From Escherichia coli (GTDB taxonomy: Bacteria; Pseudomonadota; Gammaproteobacteria; Enterobacterales; Enterobacteriaceae): 64,000 nt of DNA. Below are positions 2,473-36,399 of the stretch, piece by piece. The stretch lies in assembly GCF_017348835.2 (NCBI RefSeq), contig NZ_CP071375.1; one strand, written 5' to 3'. The notes below the pieces were generated by a model. That model saw only the letters and a program-made list of their open reading frames with translations. It did not search any database and had not been told where the DNA came from. The position numbers and the translations under genes are program-made. Numbering within the stretch: position 1 is the stretch's first letter; each line of letters starts with the position of its first letter.

Positions 2473-3687
2473 TTACCAGTTCCACAGCGTGCCATCTTCC
2501 AGACGTGCGACTGGCAGATAAGCAGGTTCATAGGGATATTTCGCCGCCAGCTTTTCATCGAATTCGATGCCAAGACCCGGTTTGTCTCCCGGATGCATAT
2601 AGCCGTTATCGAAAGTCCAGTTGTGCGGGAAGACTTCGAGCATTTGTTCGGAATAACCCATGTATTCCTGGACACCGAAATTGGGGACCCACAGATCAAA
2701 GTGCAGCGCCGCAGCCATGCAGACTGGTGACAAATCGGAAGGACCGTGTGAGCCAGTACGTACCTGATACAGCGAAGCAAAATCGGCAATCCGGCGCATA
2801 CCGGTAATTCCGCCTGCATGGGTCAGCGTGGTGCGGATATAATCGATAAGTTGCTCTTCAATCAGTTGCTTGCAGTCCCAGATGCTGTTGAAGACTTCAC
2901 CCACTGCGATGGGTGTGACGGTATGTTGGCGAATGAGACGGAAGCATTCCTGGTTTTCCGCAGGCGTCGGGTCTTCCATCCAGAACATGCGATAATCTTC
3001 AATGCTTTTACCAAAGCGCGCCGCTTCAATAGGCGTTAAGCGATGGTGCATGTCATGCAGCAAATGTTCATTAAAACCAAACTTGTTACGTACCGCGTCA
3101 AACAATTTCGGCATGAAATCGAGGTATTTCTCCGTCGACCACAGCTGCTCTTCCGGCCACTGTCCTTTGGTTGCGGGTTCATAAGCCAGACCTTTACCTT
3201 TCGACATGCCGTAGGTGGTTTTCATACCAGGGATTCCGCACTGCACGCGGATGGCTTTGAATCCAAGCTCCTGATGACGGGCATAATCATCCAGAGCTTC
3301 ATCAATACTGTGACCGGTGGTATGGCAATAAACCATCCCCCCTTCACGAGACGCGCCGCCGAGTAACTGGTAAAGCGGCATGTTGGCAGCTTTGGCTTTA
3401 ATATCCCACAGCGCCATATCAACCGCTGAAATGGCCGACATCGTAACCGGACCGCGACGCCAGTAAGCACCTTTATAGAAAAACTGCCAGATATCTTCGA
3501 TACGGTGCGCATCGCGACCAATAAGCTGCGGACAAAGGTGATCCTGCAAATAAGAGGCCACGGAAAGCTCACGTCCATTGAGGGTGGCATCCCCAAGGCC
3601 CGTAATACCGTCCTCAGTGGTGATTTTTAATGTGACGAAATTACGTCCCGGACAGGTAACAAAAACTTCAGCCTTTACGATCTTCAT
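2473..3687 (-). CDS. rspA: RspA, enolase-superfamily mannonate/altronate dehydratase-like protein
   Basis: Translation starts [27 protein letters not shown]; overlaps the rspB start as in the rspAB operon. Confidence 0.9.
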
Positions 3688-30155: not shown

Positions 30156-30389
30156 TTATTCTCCGGTGTGCTGTTCTTTATATCTGTCGTGCAATAGATC
30201 TATTTCTTGCAGTTCCATTATTACATGCTCAAGAATCGTTATTAATGCCGTGGCAATTCTTGATTTTTGTTTGTCGCGTTCATTGTCGCCAAGTGTTTCA
30301 AGCCATATGCGCAATATTTCCAGCATGTTTTCACTGTGAGAAAGTGCAAGAAATGCGCGGTCTATTGTTTCGAGGTAAATATCACGCAT
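30156..30389 (-). CDS. Hypothetical protein (77 aa)
   Basis: ORF in the operon upstream of rep. Confidence 0.4.
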   Translation of the reverse strand: MRDIYLETIDRAFLALSHSENMLEILRIWLETLGDNERDKQKSRIATALITILEHVIMELQEIDLLHDRYKEQHTGE

Positions 30390-30390
30390 A

Positions 30391-30612
30391 TTAATCCCCG
30401 TCCGTTGTTTTTCTTAAAATAACTTCTGTCACGAAATCAGCATAGTTAGCGGCAATATCAAGAATATTTAGCCCTGTATCTCTGTGCTCATCAGTGCAAA
30501 GAAAGAAAAAAGCCACCCGCATAATTTCAGATATTGACGAAAGCGCATCAGCCGCATCATCAGGAACGCCGGAAAATTCTTGTTTCAGGGAATTAAAACG
30601 ATCATCACGCAT
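30391..30612 (-). CDS. Hypothetical protein (~73 aa; start uncertain)
   Basis: ORF in the operon; start chosen just downstream of the preceding stop. Confidence 0.3.
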   Translation of the reverse strand: MRDDRFNSLKQEFSGVPDDAADALSSISEIMRVAFFFLCTDEHRDTGLNILDIAANYADFVTEVILRKTTDGD

Positions 30613-30821
30613 AACCCCCCCCATTTTCATAATCTGCAACAAGAATATTTTTAGCGTCATTCAGCGACCGCGTGGCGGTGTATCGGATACATTCCAGGGC
30701 GAACAATGTGTATTCCTCCCGTTCTTCCTTTTGTGCAAGCTCTGCCGTGCATTCAATATCAATAAGCGCGTGCATCAGCGTAGTGAGTGCGGCTGCGTCC
30801 GGACGGATGTTATTGCACATG
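30605..30821 (-). CDS. Hypothetical protein (~72 aa)
   Basis: ORF in the operon; start at internal Met MCNNIRPD. Confidence 0.3.
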
Positions 30822-31043
30822 GTGTACCCCTCCGCATTTTTTTTCGTTAGAAATAAGCGTTCTTCTTTCCTGTTCATCGCTCAGGAATACGCAGACCTCA
30901 CCGCTAAGGCGTTTAAGTAAGCCGATGATTGCCCCTGATTCGCTGTCGGTCATCATGCCAGGGTAATCCTCTGCCAGTGCGCAAATAACTTCGATTTGGT
31001 GGGCGCGTTCTGCTGCCTGTTGTAGTGTGATTTCCTGGCTCAT
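30810..31043 (-). CDS. Hypothetical protein (~77 aa)
   Basis: ORF in the operon; start MSQEITLQQ, ATGA-coupled to the upstream gene. Confidence 0.35.
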   Translation of the reverse strand: MSQEITLQQAAERAHQIEVICALAEDYPGMMTDSESGAIIGLLKRLSGEVCVFLSDEQERRTLISNEKKCGGVHHVQ

Positions 31044-31234
31044 AAGCCTACCCCCTGGCGAATACGGGCGGCGAATACAGCAACACAACCTGACGGGCAA
31101 CGGTTACGCGCTTCGCGTTCCGTCCAGGCGGTTACGTGGATTATTTGAGATTCTCCGGCACTCAGTGCCAGAAAACGCCACACAAAGGCCGTTTGTGTGT
31201 GTACAAGGTGTGGTATATGATTTACAGCAACCAT
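31040..31234 (-). CDS. Hypothetical protein (~64 aa), first gene of the minus-strand early operon
   Basis: Start MVAVNHIPHLV; lies next to the divergent promoter region. Confidence 0.3.
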   Translation of the reverse strand: MVAVNHIPHLVHTQTAFVWRFLALSAGESQIIHVTAWTEREARNRCPSGCVAVFAARIRQGVGL

Positions 31235-31326
31235 AACGGCTCCTAGTTTACGTTGTTGGTTAGAAGCCCTGCGAGTGGTAACGACACTTGCGGGGCTTTG
31301 TCTTTTCATCGATTACCTTGATAAAG

Positions 31327-31408
31327 GTGTCAGCCACTATATTAGTAACGGGTGTCAGCCACGTCAATAGTGTTTTTCCGTTTTCTTGTGTGTATACTGT
31401 CAGCCACC
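31327..31408. promoter_or_regulatory. Divergent promoter/operator region with three direct repeats of GTGTCAGCCAC
   Basis: Repeats at 31327..31337, 31352..31362 and 31398..31407, the last next to the RBS of the plus-strand gene. Confidence 0.55.
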
Positions 31409-31428
31409 TAATAACGAGGAAATCAGAT

Positions 31429-31608
31429 ATGGCAACAAAAGCAGTTAATGCAAAATCCAAAAAGCTTGAGGCTCGAGTACCACACGCAATAGCTGATGCT
31501 GTAGAAAATTTAAAGGAAGATGGCGAAAGTACAGGGCAATTTATCGTTTCGGCACTTGAAGGCGAGATCAAACGCCGCCAGCGCCGCAAGGCCAAAGAAT
31601 CAGAATAA
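31429..31608 (+). CDS. Small basic protein (59 aa), divergently transcribed; candidate island regulator
   Basis: ORF MATKAVNAKSKKLEARVPHAIADAVENLKEDGESTGQFIVSALEGEIKRRQRRKAKESE with a GAGGA-like RBS. Confidence 0.45.
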   Translation: MATKAVNAKSKKLEARVPHAIADAVENLKEDGESTGQFIVSALEGEIKRRQRRKAKESE

Positions 31609-31650
31609 TCACTATCAGCGCCGTGGTGTGAGGTATTACGGCGCATTGCT

Positions 31651-31839
31651 ATGCAGGACAACACAATGACCGATAAAGAATTGACCAAAACATTATCACC
31701 GGCACGGAAAAGACGGCGCAGAAAGATAGAACATGAATCAGAAAGATTCGCGCCATGTGCTTTTGCCCTTGAGCAATTCCTTAAAGAGTACAGGGAAAAG
31801 CGCTCATTGCAGGTATGGCAACGAACTGAACCAGACTGA
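31651..31839 (+). CDS. Hypothetical small basic protein (start uncertain)
   Basis: Second plus-strand ORF before the plus-strand terminator. Confidence 0.3.
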   Translation: MQDNTMTDKELTKTLSPARKRRRRKIEHESERFAPCAFALEQFLKEYREKRSLQVWQRTEPD

Positions 31840-31934
31840 TTGCATTGCCCACCAGCCTGATAGCGGCTATCATCCCCGTGCTTATGTTTGGGATCACACA
31901 CACAAACGGCGCAGCGGGTTATCTGTTCAGAAAG

Positions 31935-31962
31935 GCGGCTCCATTTCGGGGCCGCTTTTTTT
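31935..31962 (+). terminator. Intrinsic terminator of the plus-strand small-gene transcript (GCGGCTCC ... GGGGCCGC followed by TTTTTTT)
   Basis: 8-bp stem with one G-U pair, followed by a U-run. Confidence 0.6.
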
Positions 31963-32108
31963 ATGCCTGAAAAACCCCAATTTTGTGGTTTTCCAGTCTC
32001 ACCAGGGCGAACGAATCCCCGCCCACGTTCTGGCGTATATTCAATCTTCATGGTTATAGCTCTGTGTTCAGATGATTGATGTGTGGCGGCTGTGTGCCGC
32101 CAGCGTGA

Positions 32109-32297
32109 TTAATGAACTGCCTTGCAGCTATCCTTCCAGGCCAGAACCTCGGATAAAGACCAGCCAACGGAACGACCGCCAAGTTTACGACGTGATGGGA
32201 ATTGTCCGGCCTTTTCCAGGCGGTAGCGGCATGAGCGGCTAAGGCCTGTTAGCTTTTCGCATTCTTTTTCACGTATAAACCGATCAGTGCTTAACAC
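32109..32297 (-). CDS. alpA: AlpA-family transcriptional regulator / excisionase-like protein
   Basis: 62 aa, MLSTDRFIREKECEKLTGLSRSCRYRLEKAGQFPSRRKLGGRSVGWSLSEVLAW, a typical AlpA HTH. Confidence 0.8.
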   Translation of the reverse strand: MLSTDRFIREKECEKLTGLSRSCRYRLEKAGQFPSRRKLGGRSVGWSLSEVLAWKDSCKAVH

Positions 32298-32456
32298 TAT
32301 TGCCCCCTTTCGTTTCTTAAAGAGTTATTTCGTGTTCTATTGCGTTGGGATGTGTCTGATTGTGTCAGGATGATTCAGAGTTGGCAAATGTTGAGGTCGT
32401 ATGGTTTACAGAAACAGGAATAATCAGGATAAAATCATTTAAATTCATGTTAATAC

Positions 32457-32490
32457 AAAGGCATAAAATATTGTTTCATGCCTTTTTTCT
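32457..32490 (+). terminator. Plus-strand hairpin with U-run (AAAGGCAT ... ATGCCTTT TTTTCTC) in the alpA-int intergenic region
   Basis: Read directly from the sequence; there is no annotated plus-strand gene upstream. Confidence 0.45.
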
Positions 32491-32671
32491 CGCCATTTAA
32501 AGAGTGATTCGCTAGTGTATAAAAAACCAGTAACACATTAAAAATCAGCCACTTATAAATCCGTACACTTTTTCGCCTCTTGTTCGTAGTTGTTCCGCAT
32601 TGTTGCTCATTGTTGCATGTTGTATCTGTTCGCATATCCAGTATGCGCATACTGAAAAAACACGAAAAAAA

Positions 32672-33901
32672 TTATTTTCTTCTGGCTACTGGTAGCGTGG
32701 TTACGTTTTCATGTGTTCCCGCCAGTATCCCTAACCGCTCCGTCCACATATCCAGCGCATTGCGTTTAGCATCCAGATAACGGGAATGATTATAAACTCG
32801 CTGCATTCCTGGCATCTGATGACCTGTAAGCTGCTCCACGACATGCGGATCAACGCCTAAATCGTTCAGCATGGTTGTAAAGGTGCGCCGGATGTCATGC
32901 AGTGACCAGTGAGGATGATTAAGCCTCCTGTGCGCTAATCTTCCATACTGCGATACGCTGGCCTCCTGTTTCGCTTCCCCCAGCAATAAGCCCGTGTGCC
33001 TGTTCTGCTCCACCAGCTGCGTGACGAACGGCAGGATCGCTTCCGGTATGGGCCGGAATATTGCGACCTTCGTTTTGCTGTGCTCCTTCGGAACGGTCCA
33101 TAGCATTTCCGTAAAATCCCACTCCCCGATCTCCGATAGCCTCAGTTCTACCGTCCTGGCTCCGAAGACAATCAGGAGGCGGATTAACGCGACGTAGTAA
33201 GGGGAAAATATTTTTTTGTCCAGTGCCTGCAATAATTCGCCAAGTTCTTTGTTACTTAAGACACGTTCGCTTATATCCGGTTTTTTCCCAACGTCCGCCA
33301 CGTTCAGATCGTCCAGAACGTTGCTGATTGCATAGCGCCGCCTACGGCAGAACTTAAGCGCCTGTTTGCACGCCTGTAGCACGAATCCGGCAGTAACAGG
33401 CGTTCGCTTTGCCACCTGGTCAAAACAGGCCAGCCAGTGCCGTAGCTCGCATTTATCCAGCGGCATAGCACCAATCTGCTGTATTACGTGATTATTAAGT
33501 CGCCTTTTCAGGGCGATATAATCCACGCGGTTTTCCTTTACGTAATACTCAAGCCAGTAGGTGAGCGCATCGCCAACCGTTACGGGCTTTAACGCTTCCT
33601 GTACGGTGTAATTCATCTCATGACGTGGATTTTTCCCCTCAGCCAGCCATGTGCGACACTGTGCGGCTTTTTCCCTGGCTGCTTTCAGGCTCAGATCAGG
33701 ATAACTTCCCAGCTTAATGCGTTCGGGTCGTGTCTCCCTTCCCGTTCCGGCCCTGTATGTGAAATACCAGGTCAATTTCCCTGATGTTAAATATTTCACG
33801 CTCAGGTTTCCGCCATCACTATAAAACGTGTTTTTCTCCGCTGGCTTACCATGAAGTTTCCTTAGCAAGGTATCGCTCAGTTTGTTCATTGCTCTGCTCA
33901 C
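32672..33901 (-). CDS. int: Tyrosine integrase, P4-like family
   Basis: 409 aa; N-terminal P4-type arm-binding region (GKLTWYFTYRAGTGRETRPERIKLGSYPDLSLKAAREKA) and a C-terminal catalytic domain (HDIRRTF...Y); adjacent to attR. Confidence 0.85.
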   Translation of the reverse strand: MSRAMNKLSDTLLRKLHGKPAEKNTFYSDGGNLSVKYLTSGKLTWYFTYRAGTGRETRPERIKLGSYPDLSLKAAREKAAQCRTWLAEGKNPRHEMNYTVQEALKPVTVGDALTYWLEYYVKENRVDYIALKRRLNNHVIQQIGAMPLDKCELRHWLACFDQVAKRTPVTAGFVLQACKQALKFCRRRRYAISNVLDDLNVADVGKKPDISERVLSNKELGELLQALDKKIFSPYYVALIRLLIVFGARTVELRLSEIGEWDFTEMLWTVPKEHSKTKVAIFRPIPEAILPFVTQLVEQNRHTGLLLGEAKQEASVSQYGRLAHRRLNHPHWSLHDIRRTFTTMLNDLGVDPHVVEQLTGHQMPGMQRVYNHSRYLDAKRNALDMWTERLGILAGTHENVTTLPVARRK

Positions 33902-33926
33902 GTTTTACCCCCTCTTTACGAAAAAG

Positions 33927-33949
33927 TGACTACACCAGTGACTACACCG
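33927..33949. repeat. Putative integrase arm-type site, right copy (TGACTACACCAGTGACTACACCG)
   Basis: Exact 23-bp direct repeat of 22668..22690. Confidence 0.55.
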
Positions 33950-34076
33950 ATCGTTGCACAAAGGGCTACAACGTGAAACAAGCTGGAACAAGGAAAATCA
34001 CAAATCTGTTGATAATCAAAAACATAATGCACAGCCTGAAACATTATGAAACAGCAAAAAACACTAAATGATAAAA

Positions 34077-34085
34077 TGCTGTTAT
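34077..34085. other. attR core, right copy of TGCTGTTAT
   Basis: Island-to-tqsA junction; tqsA sequence resumes in frame. Confidence 0.6.
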
Positions 34086-34983
34086 TCTTAACCCGCTGGT
34101 GCAACACATGGTCCGCTGGCGAGTGCCGCGTGTACTGGCGGTGTCGATTTTGATGACCATCATCGTGATGGCTATGGTGTTGCTGTTAGCTTATCTGGGT
34201 TCCGCGCTCAACGAGTTGACGCGGACGTTACCGCAATATCGCAACTCTATTATGACGCCGCTGCAAGCGCTTGAACCGTTGTTGCAACGCGTAGGGATTG
34301 ACGTCTCAGTTGACCAGCTGGCGCATTATATTGATCCGAACGCGGCGATGACGTTGCTCACCAACTTATTGACGCAGTTATCTAATGCCATGTCATCAAT
34401 ATTTTTATTGCTGCTGACGGTGCTGTTTATGCTGCTCGAAGTGCCACAATTGCCCGGAAAATTTCAGCAAATGATGGCGCGTCCGGTTGAAGGGATGGCG
34501 GCGATTCAGCGTGCGATTGACAGTGTGTCTCATTATCTGGTGCTGAAAACAGCCATCAGCATCATCACCGGCCTGGTCGCATGGGCGATGCTCGCCGCCC
34601 TCGATGTTCGCTTCGCTTTTGTCTGGGGATTGCTGGCCTTTGCGCTTAATTACATCCCTAATATTGGTTCAGTTCTCGCGGCAATCCCCCCTATCGCTCA
34701 GGTACTGGTATTTAATGGCTTCTACGAAGCGTTGCTGGTGCTGGCGGGATATCTGCTGATTAATCTGGTCTTCGGCAATATTCTGGAGCCGCGCATCATG
34801 GGGCGTGGGCTGGGTCTTTCCACATTGGTGGTATTTTTGTCGTTGATTTTTTGGGGATGGTTGTTAGGACCGGTGGGTATGCTGCTTTCCGTGCCGTTGA
34901 CAATTATTGTCAAAATTGCGCTTGAACAAACAGCGGGAGGTCAAAGCATCGCCGTTCTGTTAAGCGATCTCAATAAAGAGTGA
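34085..34983 (+). pseudogene. tqsA: 3' fragment of tqsA (AI-2E family transporter), about 299 codons, separated from its start and promoter
   Basis: Translation [24 protein letters not shown]... continues the 5' fragment at 22457..22591. Confidence 0.85.
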
Positions 34984-35004
34984 CGGCCTCCGCAGAGGCC
35001 GTCA
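34981..35004. terminator. Stem-loop (TGACGGCCTC ... GAGGCCGTCA) between the convergent genes tqsA and pntB
   Basis: 10-bp perfect inverted repeat. Confidence 0.5.
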
Positions 35005-35007
35005 GGG

Positions 35008-36399
<1,392 letters not shown>

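What the first reader, a model, noticed from the sequence alone, without database searches (positions are those of the whole stretch)
31236..31962. Divergent control region with three GTGTCAGCCAC direct repeats and two small plus-strand genes ending at a clean terminator
The only plus-strand genes in the element encode small basic proteins, are divergent from the rep operon, and are followed by a good intrinsic terminator. Three copies of an 11-bp direct repeat occupy the shared promoter region, the last one touching the RBS. This looks like a repressor/operator switch controlling the island.
Basis: partly seen in the sequence, partly recalled or inferred. Interest (0 to 1): 0.5.

Follow-up and report, generated by a model that had tools for sequence, protein, structure and literature searches.

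The report
Satellite repressor switch inside antisense ORF
The three repeats and the first small gene look like the operator sites and repressor of a phage-satellite island, and the whole switch lies antisense inside a long stop-free reading frame linking the island's activator gene to its replication operon, as in phage P4.

Summary
TGTCAGCCAC occurs exactly three times in 64 kb, all within 80 bp. Both small plus-strand genes and their terminator are present.

The repressor/operator reading is well supported, though by sequence evidence only. Gene 1 (31429-31608) belongs to the YlcI/YnfO family and is predicted to have a ribbon-helix-helix (RHH) fold. In 80 related loci, three 11-bp sites of framework GTG-N5-CAC, often palindromic, sit at about -102/-77/-31 from its ATG in most operator classes. 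Their central bases change together with the protein's N-terminal strand, giving about 11 specificity types. The sites overlap two back-to-back predicted promoters. In the EDL933 satellite, operators plus gene are replaced as one cassette by an unrelated RHH gene.

The module is embedded antisense in a long minus-strand frame (31260-32051) that starts just after alpA and ends 25 nt before the Icd-like gene. That frame is kept stop-free across relatives, yet its amino-acid sequence shows no sign of conservation. This matches the P4 vis-eta-kil arrangement, with a protein repressor where P4 has its CI RNA.

A hairpin with compensatory changes and a conserved -10 box also suggest an ~80-nt antisense RNA over the icd start. 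All mechanisms are inferred, none tested.

The parts
31327..31337 (.). Operator O1 (GTGTCAGCCAC), over the predicted start site of the minus-strand promoter
   Evidence: A site at about -102 from the ylcI ATG in most operator classes among the relatives.
31352..31362 (.). Operator O2 (GTGTCAGCCAC), in the spacer of the minus-strand promoter and touching its -35 box
31397..31407 (.). Operator O3 (CTGTCAGCCAC), starting at the last bases of the plus-strand -10 box and covering the predicted ylcI start site (autoregulation site)
31339..31367 (-). Predicted promoter of the icd-rep operon: TTGACG (31367-31362), 17 nt, TAATAT (31344-31339). This would be the counterpart of P4 PLE, internal to the long ORF.
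   Evidence: Consensus scan. The -35 box (CAC[G/T]TCAA on the plus strand) is conserved at a fixed position in 18 diverse control regions. Not tested experimentally.
31393..31398 (+). Predicted -10 box of the ylcI promoter (TATACT); the -35 box is weak in this allele
   Evidence: In 18 diverse relatives the hexamer at this position is a -10-like variant (TATACT, TATGAT, TATCAT, TATATT, CATACT, TATAGT).
31429..31608 (+). ylcI/ynfO-family gene, 59 aa: predicted ribbon-helix-helix repressor
31666..31839 (+). orf2, 57 aa, basic N-terminus, conserved motif ERFAPCAFxLExFLKEY; function unknown; accessory
   Evidence: phrog_21027. Alignment of 19 variants. pN/pS is 0.28. No Pfam, NCBIfam or PADLOC match. 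Absent from about half of the relatives.
31929..31962 (+). Intrinsic terminator of the ylcI-orf2 transcript; much weaker when read on the minus strand
   Evidence: Plus strand -21.7 kcal/mol followed by U7; minus strand -12.3 kcal/mol with an internal mismatch and a poor U tract.
31260..32051 (-). Long stop-free ORF (263 codons), antisense to ylcI, orf2, the operators, both promoters and the terminator: the proposed eta-like 'translation track'. Its first ATG is at 32051-32049, 19 in-frame codons after the alpA stop. Its TAA stop is at 31262-31260, 25 nt before the icd ATG.
   Evidence: PGAP lists part of it as a pseudogene. The frame is kept open in relatives. No wobble-position pattern of variation. 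No Pfam or PHROG match.
31040..31234 (-). Icd-like gene, first gene of the replication operon; counterpart of P4 kil (the C-terminal part of Eta)
   Evidence: NF033153, E = 5e-18. phrog_1743, E = 1e-22. The same PHROG family matches residues 149-213 of P4 Eta at E = 1.4e-20.
32109..32297 (-). alpA (activator/excisionase family). Its stop codon (32109-32111) is in the same frame as the long ORF.
   Evidence: phrog_2790.
31263..31309 (+). Conserved hairpin (15-bp stem, 31263-31299) plus T-rich tail: a plus-strand terminator just upstream of the operators
   Evidence: Plus strand -26.8 versus minus strand -16.3 kcal/mol. 16 of the 22 predicted pairs (14 of them in the hairpin) show compensatory changes in 22 sequences. 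94.5% of cells pair on the plus strand versus 82.8% on the minus strand, with 37 G.U cells on plus; the T tract is on the plus strand only.
31216..31309 (+). Candidate ~80-nt cis-antisense RNA: -10 box TATGAT at 31216-31221, predicted start near 31228, ending at the hairpin. It would be complementary to the icd SD (31240-31244) and ATG (31232-31234). Inferred only.
   Evidence: TAnnnT occurs at -43/-42 from the GGTTAGA anchor in 45 of 46 distinct relatives, against a background of 0.018 per position. It reads TGgTATGAT in the main class. No Rfam family matches.

Best explanation
This is the immunity and maintenance switch of a PICI/P4-type phage satellite integrated in tqsA.

Inferred from strong comparative evidence: the 59-aa YlcI-family protein is a ribbon-helix-helix repressor. 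As a dimer it binds three 11-bp sites. O1 and O2 cover the start site and spacer of an internal promoter that drives the Icd-like/replication operon. O3 covers the protein's own start site, giving autoregulation. The specificity of operator and protein evolves as a matched cassette, like phage immunity types.

Shown from sequence: the cassette lies antisense inside a long minus-strand ORF. That ORF begins right after alpA and ends at the icd start. Its reading frame is kept stop-free, but its amino-acid sequence shows no sign of conservation.

Inferred by analogy with P4 vis-eta-kil: when a helper phage turns on alpA, transcription from the alpA promoter reads through this ORF. Ribosomes translating it protect the transcript from premature (Rho-type) termination. 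The polymerase crosses the operators and the repressor gene in antisense and enters the replication operon, flipping the switch.

More speculative: a conserved plus-strand promoter and terminator may produce an ~80-nt antisense RNA over the icd ribosome-binding site, acting as a second lock on leaky transcripts.
For: Repressor and operator:
- Family and fold.
- Three sites at about -102/-77/-31 in most operator classes, with framework GTG-N5-CAC.
- About 11 N-terminal strand classes, each with its own operator core. Proteins only 71-73% identical overall but sharing the strand KSKKLEARVPH keep GTGTCAGCCAC.
- Conserved promoter boxes flank the sites.
- Cassette exchange has junctions at the hairpin and at the 3' end of ylcI. 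The EDL933 replacement is a HicB/Arc-like RHH with its own repeats.

Long ORF:
- Minus-strand stops per frame in the 165-nt control region of 56 distinct loci are 227, 209 and 11.
- 18 of 21 representatives that are <75% identical have zero stops in the third frame.
- 0 of 277 codons before CAN end in T, and 0 of 57 before TAN end in T or C.
- In the 21 of 36 loci where alpA lies immediately adjacent, the open run starts within +37 to -155 nt of the alpA stop (mostly 0, -38 or -71). It is fused in frame to icd in most loci.
- Variation shows no wobble-position periodicity, and there is no family match.

Link to P4:
- P4 eta overlaps the end of vis by 49 nt.
- The P4 Eta C-terminus and this Icd-like protein match the same family, phrog_1743.
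- The P4 mechanism is as summarised in PMC10111431, section 20.
- An alpA-dependent reporter fused to ORF3, a downstream gene, was shown for EcCICFT073 (PMC6092414).

Strand asymmetry: both hairpins fold better on the plus strand, leaving the minus strand free for read-through.
Against: - There are no expression, binding or ribosome data.
- The plus-strand -35 box is weak in this allele.
- The long ORF has only a weak SD before its ATG.
- In this window, unlike most relatives, the long ORF is separated from icd by a stop codon and a frame change.
- Three of 21 representative loci (L077, L066, L024) carry stops in the frame.
- No C4/isrK-type RNA is detected, so the P4 analogy is partial.
- This island has frameshifted terS and decoration genes, so it may no longer be functional.
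Confidence: 0.6

Rival explanations
1. The long minus-strand ORF encodes a functional modular protein (an Eta/'Bro-network'-type regulator ending in the Icd-like domain). Its openness would then reflect selection on that protein rather than on translation as such. The RHH switch would still work as described.
For: In most relatives the ORF is fused in frame to the conserved Icd-like domain. PGAP has reference proteins of this long type. phrog_29966 is a 188-aa family with the Icd-like part at its C-terminus. PMC10111431 treats such genes as Bro-network proteins.
Against: The control-region part shows no wobble-position periodicity. The middle of the ORF is replaced by unrelated sequence in EDL933 and still stays open. 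There is no Pfam or PHROG match to the 263-aa product. In this window it is not fused to icd.
Confidence: 0.2
2. ylcI-orf2 is a type II toxin-antitoxin or addiction pair: an RHH antitoxin that autoregulates through the repeats, plus a small toxin. It would stabilise the island rather than control its life cycle.
Against: orf2 is absent from about half of the loci that keep ylcI and the operators, and it carries a premature stop in L016. Two of the three sites lie on the divergent promoter of the replication operon. There is no toxin-family or PADLOC match. A 57-nt spacer with a hairpin separates the two genes.
Confidence: 0.05
3. The repeats are iterons or centromere-like sites, and YlcI is an omega/ParG-type RHH acting in replication or partition of the excised element, not a transcriptional repressor of the operon.
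Against: There are only three sites, each placed precisely on promoter elements that are conserved independently of operator type. There is no partition ATPase nearby. In related PICIs the origin is reported downstream of pri (PMC10111431).
Confidence: 0.07

Closest known systems
Bacteriophage P4 immunity region (vis - eta/kil - PLE - CI RNA; Forti et al. 1999, J Bacteriol 181:5225, as summarised in PMC10111431)
   Same: - A long ORF starts at or over the end of the alpA/vis homologue.
- A promoter for the replication operon lies inside that ORF.
- A short kil/Icd-like gene sits at its 3' end, and both match phrog_1743.
- The proposed logic is shared: translation of the long ORF lets upstream, helper-activated transcription reach the replication genes.
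   Different: - The immunity factor here is a protein (an RHH with three operators) encoded antisense inside the ORF, not the CI RNA with its seqA/seqC sites.
- No C4/isrK RNA is detected.
- BLASTP finds no similarity to P4 Eta.
- In this window the long ORF stops 25 nt before icd instead of containing it.
Phage P22 immI (Mnt and Arc RHH repressors, divergent promoters, sar antisense RNA) - from general knowledge
   Different: There is no sequence homology. The controlled genes differ (replication operon versus antirepressor). P22 has no long antisense ORF spanning the region.
Phage P1 immI (c4 RNA - icd - ant; translation of icd prevents Rho termination) - from general knowledge
   Same: An Icd-like leader gene sits at the head of the regulated operon. 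The shared theme is that translation of the leader decides whether transcription continues.
   Different: P1's c4 is a sense-strand processed RNA. No c4-like RNA is found here, and P1 has no RHH cassette.
Gram-negative PICIs and cf-PICIs (EcCICFT073, EcCIEDL933)
   Same: The int-alpA-replication layout is shared. The flanks of this region are 96-100% identical to EcCIEDL933. AlpA is the known activator (PMC6092414; bioRxiv 10.1101/2022.09.08.507074).
   Different: [quoted passage not shown] No paper in the searchable library links these islands to an RHH repressor.
YlcI/YnfO family (E. coli K-12 DLP12 and Qin prophages)
   Same: Gene 1 is a member by NCBIfam score.
   Different: I found no functional study of this family. 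The operator pairing described here has not been reported for it.

Membership tests
YlcI/YnfO family (NCBIfam NF041551) | Score above the curated cutoff of the family model | tested here: met
   60.6 bits against a cutoff of 30, E = 1.1e-16, residues 9-50. PGAP gives the same name in an identical genome.
Ribbon-helix-helix DNA-binding proteins | An N-terminal strand followed by two helices joined by a G-x-S/T turn; fold similarity to solved RHH proteins | tested here: met
Ribbon-helix-helix DNA-binding proteins | Sequence-profile membership in a Pfam RHH family | tested here: not met
   No Pfam hit for the window protein. Relatives give only E = 0.03-0.04 hits (PSK_trans_fac, DUF7557). The PDB sequence search found nothing significant.
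Ribbon-helix-helix DNA-binding proteins | Dimer that inserts its strand pair into the major groove of a specific site | not testable with these tools
   Indirect only: operator cores co-vary with strand residues 11-15.
P4-type vis-eta-kil arrangement | Long ORF beginning at or overlapping the 3' end of the alpA/vis homologue | tested here: met
   In the window, the ORF frame is bounded by the alpA stop and its ATG lies 19 codons later. In relatives with adjacent alpA the offset is mostly 0, -38 or -71 nt (range +37 to -155). In P4, eta overlaps vis by 49 nt.
P4-type vis-eta-kil arrangement | Short kil-type gene nested in frame at the 3' end of the long ORF | tested here: not met
   In this window the long ORF stops at 31262-31260 and icd starts at 31234 in another frame. 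In most relatives icd is in frame with the long ORF. Domain homology to the P4 Eta C-terminus runs through phrog_1743.
P4-type vis-eta-kil arrangement | CI-type immunity RNA with seqA/seqC targets (Rfam C4/isrK) | tested here: not met
   No Rfam hit at E <= 1 across 20000-36000. Only sub-threshold noise across 31000-32120.
P4-type vis-eta-kil arrangement | Translation of the long ORF prevents premature termination | not testable with these tools
   Indirect only: stop codons are excluded from one frame without amino-acid conservation.
Gram-negative PICI-type satellite | int and alpA followed by a co-oriented replication module and captured late genes, flanked by att repeats, with no tail or lysis genes | tested here: met
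   The PGAP table of the identical locus lists int, an HTH (alpA) gene, Icd-like, RepA helicase, SSB, PerC, capsid, decoration and terS. 23-bp direct repeats lie at 22668-22690 and 33927-33949. Helper dependence was not tested.
Type II toxin-antitoxin operon | Antitoxin and toxin genes always co-inherited | tested here: not met
   orf2 is absent from about half of the ylcI loci, and there is no toxin-family match.

The most novel reading that the evidence does not exclude
Enterobacterial PICI/P4-type satellites carry a previously unrecognised protein-based immunity system: an RHH repressor with at least 11 matched operator specificities. It occupies the place of the P4 CI RNA and is encoded antisense inside a 'translation-track' ORF whose only selected property is the absence of stop codons. 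A cis-antisense sRNA over the icd start adds a second lock. This would supply the 'missing repressor' of Gram-negative PICIs and a clear natural case of an ORF maintained for ribosome transit rather than for its product.
Probability: 0.4. Interest if true: 0.75.

Novelty: new variant of a known kind. Interest (0 to 1): 0.62.

Why it matters
Gram-negative PICIs are described as controlled only by the activator AlpA, and the founding paper left open whether a master repressor exists (PMC6092414).

A repressor/operator cassette with many specificities would explain how these islands stay silent and how co-resident islands avoid cross-talk. It would also make the induction step directly testable.

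The antisense nesting matters for annotation. Current pipelines either miss the repressor gene or call the long ORF a hypothetical protein or a pseudogene.

A reading frame kept open without amino-acid conservation, overlapping a conserved gene with coinciding wobble positions, is a useful natural model. It could be used to study translation-coupled anti-termination and the constraints on antisense gene overlap.

Tried and rejected
- Long antisense ORF as a chance 'shadow' of ylcI: rejected. It stays open through 165 nt of non-coding control region in 53 of 57 distinct relatives, and through an unrelated replacement cassette.
- Invertible DNA switch using the perfect 15-nt inverted repeat (31188-31202 / 31896-31910): rejected. 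No inverted junction was found in 5,426 complete E. coli genomes.
- The 15-nt repeat as a conserved long-range RNA pairing (anti-terminator): not supported. It occurs in only one closely related lineage. The icd-internal hairpin it would compete with is no better than shuffled sequence (z = -0.45). A 10-nt analogue in another lineage is not significant on its own.
- P4 CI / P1 c4 / isrK-type RNA: none detected by Rfam.
- Direct sequence similarity of the Icd-like protein to the P4 ORF: BLASTP finds none. The link exists only through a shared PHROG profile.
- Phage database by DNA: no match. By protein, only one induced prophage-like element.
- The genome-contig scan with the Icd-like protein returned only one locus, in E. 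albertii, and was not informative.
- Protein-level selection on the long ORF within ylcI and orf2: the low pN/pS there (0.48 and 0.33) is uninformative, because wobble positions of the two strands coincide in this frame.
- Pfam, NCBIfam and PADLOC for orf2: nothing.
- The paper by Forti et al. 1999 (PMC94026) could not be opened. The P4 mechanism is cited second-hand from PMC10111431.

Full report
1. WHAT IS THERE

The window carries an 11.3-kb island inserted in tqsA, flanked by 23-bp direct repeats at 22668-22690 and 33927-33949. An identical locus in E. coli PE164 is annotated, all on the minus strand, as:
- integrase (33901-32672);
- an AlpA-type HTH gene (32297-32109);
- an Icd-like gene (31234-31040);
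- several small ORFs, a RepA-family helicase, SSB and PerC;
- major capsid, head decoration (frameshifted) and terminase small subunit (frameshifted).

The only plus-strand gene annotated inside the island is a YlcI/YnfO family gene at 31429-31608. This is the layout of a Gram-negative PICI-type phage satellite. The flanks of the region under study are 96-100% identical to the prototype capsid-forming PICI of strain EDL933.

2. THE OBSERVATION

TGTCAGCCAC occurs exactly three times in the 64-kb window, at 31328, 31353 and 31398. Shuffles give a mean of 0.14 copies, and none of 100 reaches 3. The 11-mers are GTGTCAGCCAC twice and CTGTCAGCCAC once.

Gene 1 (59 aa) passes the NCBIfam YlcI/YnfO model at twice its cutoff. 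Gene 2 most likely starts at 31666 and encodes 57 aa. It matches phrog_21027, has a conserved ERFAPCAFxLExFLKEY core in 19 variants, and shows pN/pS = 0.28.

The terminator at 31929-31962 folds at -21.7 kcal/mol and is followed by seven U.

One detail is off. The third repeat abuts the predicted -10 box (TATACT, 31393-31398), not the ribosome-binding site.

3. IS IT A REPRESSOR AND ITS OPERATORS?

3b. Co-variation. A scan of viral contigs returned 80 loci encoding relatives that are 63-100% identical.
- In most operator classes, three sites lie at about -102, -77 and -31 from the ATG. Their framework is GTG-N5-CAC, and several are perfect 5-1-5 palindromes, such as GTGTCGGACAC, CTGGATTCCAG and GTGCTTAGCAC.
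- The central bases differ between loci in step with protein residues 11-15, the predicted DNA-reading strand. Examples: KKLEA goes with TCAGC, KR[F/I]D[V/A] with TCGGA, QALKA with TGGCC, QKLQA with GGATTCC, QSVTA with TAAGA or TCTTA, QT[L/V]AA with TTGAA, and TQLAS with GCTTAGC.
- Proteins only 71-73% identical to the window's, but with the same strand, keep the same operator.

3c. Position. The consensus scan finds a minus-strand promoter, TTGACG-17-TAATAT, at 31367-31339. Its -35 box is conserved at a fixed place in 18 diverse control regions, whatever their operator type. So is the plus-strand -10 box that directly precedes site 3. O1 therefore lies on the predicted start site and O2 in the spacer of the promoter facing the Icd-like/replication operon. 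O3 lies on the start site of the repressor's own promoter.

3d. Cassette behaviour.
- Against EDL933, identity is 96-100% up to the hairpin at 31263-31299 and again from the last codons of gene 1 onward. Between these points the sequence is unrelated.
- The EDL933 replacement encodes a HicB/Arc-like RHH and carries its own repeats (GGTGACCAC, twice).
- Other relatives combine the same cassette with different icd alleles, or the same icd and alpA with a different cassette.

4a. The ORF. A 263-codon ORF runs on the minus strand from 32051 to 31260. It is antisense to the terminator, orf2, ylcI, both promoters and all three operators. PGAP lists part of it as a pseudogene here, and as a 247-aa hypothetical protein or a truncated 'Icd-like protein' elsewhere.

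4b. It is not a chance shadow ORF.
- In the 165 nt upstream of ylcI, which code for nothing on the plus strand, 56 distinct relatives contain 227 and 209 minus-strand stop codons in two frames and 11 in the third. Eight of those 11 are in a single outlier.
- Among 21 representatives that are <75% identical, 18 have no stop in that frame, against about four per locus in each of the other frames.
- Inside ylcI, a stop in that frame needs a T before a CAN codon, or a T or C before a TAN codon. Neither occurs in 277 and 57 opportunities, although 20% of other codons end in T. Pro-His, for example, is CCA, CCC or CCG and never CCT.
- The frame used is the one in which the wobble positions of the two strands coincide.
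- The unrelated EDL933 cassette is open in the same frame.

4c. Where it starts and ends. In the 21 of 36 loci where alpA lies immediately adjacent, the open run begins at the alpA stop or overlaps the end of alpA (mostly 0, -38 or -71 nt, up to -155), or starts 7 or 37 nt after it. It continues in frame into the Icd-like gene in most loci. In the window it stops 25 nt before the icd ATG, just upstream of the icd Shine-Dalgarno sequence.

4d. No protein-level constraint detected. Variation in the control region shows no third-position excess in this frame (103, 101 and 100 state changes at codon positions 1, 2 and 3). The product matches no Pfam or PHROG family. The frame is therefore kept open, but its amino-acid sequence shows no detectable constraint.

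5. THE KNOWN PARALLEL: P4

PMC10111431 (section 20) summarises Forti et al. 1999 as follows:
- The constitutive promoter PLE and the immunity RNA CI lie inside eta.
- kil is nested at its 3' end.
- Translation of eta, which happens only when the upstream helper-activated promoter fires, prevents immunity-specific termination, so transcription reaches the replication genes.

In the P4 record, the 214-codon eta ORF overlaps vis by 49 nt. Its C-terminal 65 residues match phrog_1743 at E = 1.4e-20, the same family as the window's Icd-like protein at E = 1e-22. The arrangement here is therefore a relative of vis-eta-kil.

The differences are these. The immunity determinant in the middle of the long ORF is a protein repressor gene on the opposite strand. 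No C4/isrK-type RNA is detectable. BLASTP sees no direct similarity.

For PICIs, AlpA is the established activator. An alpA-dependent reporter fused to ORF3, a downstream gene, was shown in EcCICFT073. The existence of a repressor was left 'unclear' (PMC6092414). alpA is also required for induction of EcCIEDL933 (bioRxiv 10.1101/2022.09.08.507074). I found no paper linking these islands to an RHH repressor.

6. A POSSIBLE SECOND LAYER

The hairpin at 31263-31299, immediately left of the operators, is present in almost all relatives, with many different sequences.
- In a 22-sequence alignment, 16 of the 22 predicted pairs (14 of them in the hairpin) show compensatory changes.
- It is a plus-strand structure. 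It folds at -26.8 kcal/mol on the plus strand versus -16.3 on the minus strand. 94.5% of cells pair on plus versus 82.8% on minus. There are 37 G.U cells on plus, which would be C.A mismatches on minus. The T-rich tail is on the plus side only.
- A TAnnnT hexamer lies 42-43 nt upstream of its base in 45 of 46 distinct relatives, against a background of 0.018 per position. It reads TGgTATGAT in the main class and TATGAT (31216-31221) in the window. It persists across icd alleles that encode different amino acids there.

This predicts an ~80-nt plus-strand RNA complementary to the icd Shine-Dalgarno sequence and start codon. It would resemble sar of P22 immI. This is inference only, and I give it about even odds.

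7. MECHANISM PROPOSED

Quiescent state: YlcI dimers occupy O1-O3, silence the internal promoter of the icd-replication operon, and limit their own synthesis. The antisense RNA, if real, blocks translation of icd on leaky transcripts.

Induction: the helper activates alpA, and AlpA amplifies its own promoter. Transcription continues past the alpA stop. Ribosomes reinitiate on the long ORF and follow the polymerase, protecting the transcript from Rho. On the minus strand, the ylcI-orf2 terminator and the leader hairpin are weak. The polymerase crosses the repressor gene and operators in antisense and enters icd and the replication genes.

What is shown: the sequence elements, their conservation, the co-variation and the frame openness. 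What is inferred: binding, promoter activity, translation of the long ORF, Rho involvement and the sRNA.

8. THINGS THAT DID NOT HOLD UP

- The perfect 15-nt inverted repeat (31188-31202 / 31896-31910) occurs in one lineage only and is not associated with DNA inversion in 5,426 genomes.
- The hairpin inside icd is no better than shuffled sequence.
- A toxin-antitoxin reading is unlikely, because orf2 is dispensable.

9. VERDICT

The region is more interesting than described: a matched repressor/operator immunity cassette with many specificities, nested antisense in a P4-eta-like ORF selected only to stay open. I class it as a new variant of a known kind. Interest is 0.62.

Main caveats: there are no experimental data, and this particular island may be decaying, since it carries two frameshifted late genes.

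Noticed in passing
window 22668-22690 and 33927-33949: A 23-bp direct repeat (TGACTACACCAGTGACTACACCG) flanks the island, which splits tqsA. These are the probable attL and attR, giving an island of about 11.3 kb.
   Followed up: partly
window about 23857-25430 (L001 4858-5399 and 6032-6431): In the identical PE164 locus, PGAP marks the terminase small subunit and the head decoration gene as frameshifted. The island also lacks annotated portal, protease and large terminase genes. It may be a decaying or non-autonomous capsid-carrying satellite.
   Followed up: no
window 31188-31202 and 31896-31910: A perfect 15-nt inverted repeat (GCCGTTTGTGTGTGT / ACACACACAAACGGC) brackets the whole switch. 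On a read-through minus-strand RNA the two copies would be complementary. It is found in only one lineage, and no inverted junction occurs in 5,426 genomes. It remains unexplained.
   Followed up: yes
window 31618-31644: A 7-bp hairpin (GCGCCGT...ACGGCGC) lies between ylcI and orf2, just inside the conserved right-hand junction of the cassette. Its role is unknown.
   Followed up: no
L002 3211-3954 (EDL933) and L002 3320-3511: In the prototype cf-PICI EcCIEDL933, the annotated 247-aa 'hypothetical protein' is the antisense long ORF. The plus-strand HicB/Arc-like RHH gene inside it (63 aa, TTG start, or a shorter form from the internal Met) is not annotated. It has two GGTGACCAC repeats upstream.
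   Followed up: partly
L077, L066, L024: These three relatives break the rule. L077 has 8 stops in the otherwise open frame and no detectable icd or alpA nearby. L066 has a 1-nt indel. L024 lacks operator 1. They may be decayed or differently organised elements.
   Followed up: no
L087 6726-7031 (E. coli clone D i2): A 101-aa YlcI/YnfO family variant (compare phrog_6522) sits in the same position in an island with the same capsid, decoration and terS late genes, integrated near tRNA-Asp.
   Followed up: no
L016 about 3238-3408: The orf2 homologue carries a premature stop (Trp to stop), consistent with orf2 being dispensable.
   Followed up: no
L050 and L063 (open runs of 2295 and 1959 nt): In some relatives the stop-free minus-strand frame runs for about 2 kb upstream of icd, so much larger inserts are also traversed by the open frame. 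What they contain was not examined.
   Followed up: no
window 31923-32016, minus strand: There is a sub-threshold Rfam match to the Salmonella sRNA family STnc50 (23 bits against a gathering score of 55, E = 0.35) over the terminator region. It is probably noise.
   Followed up: no
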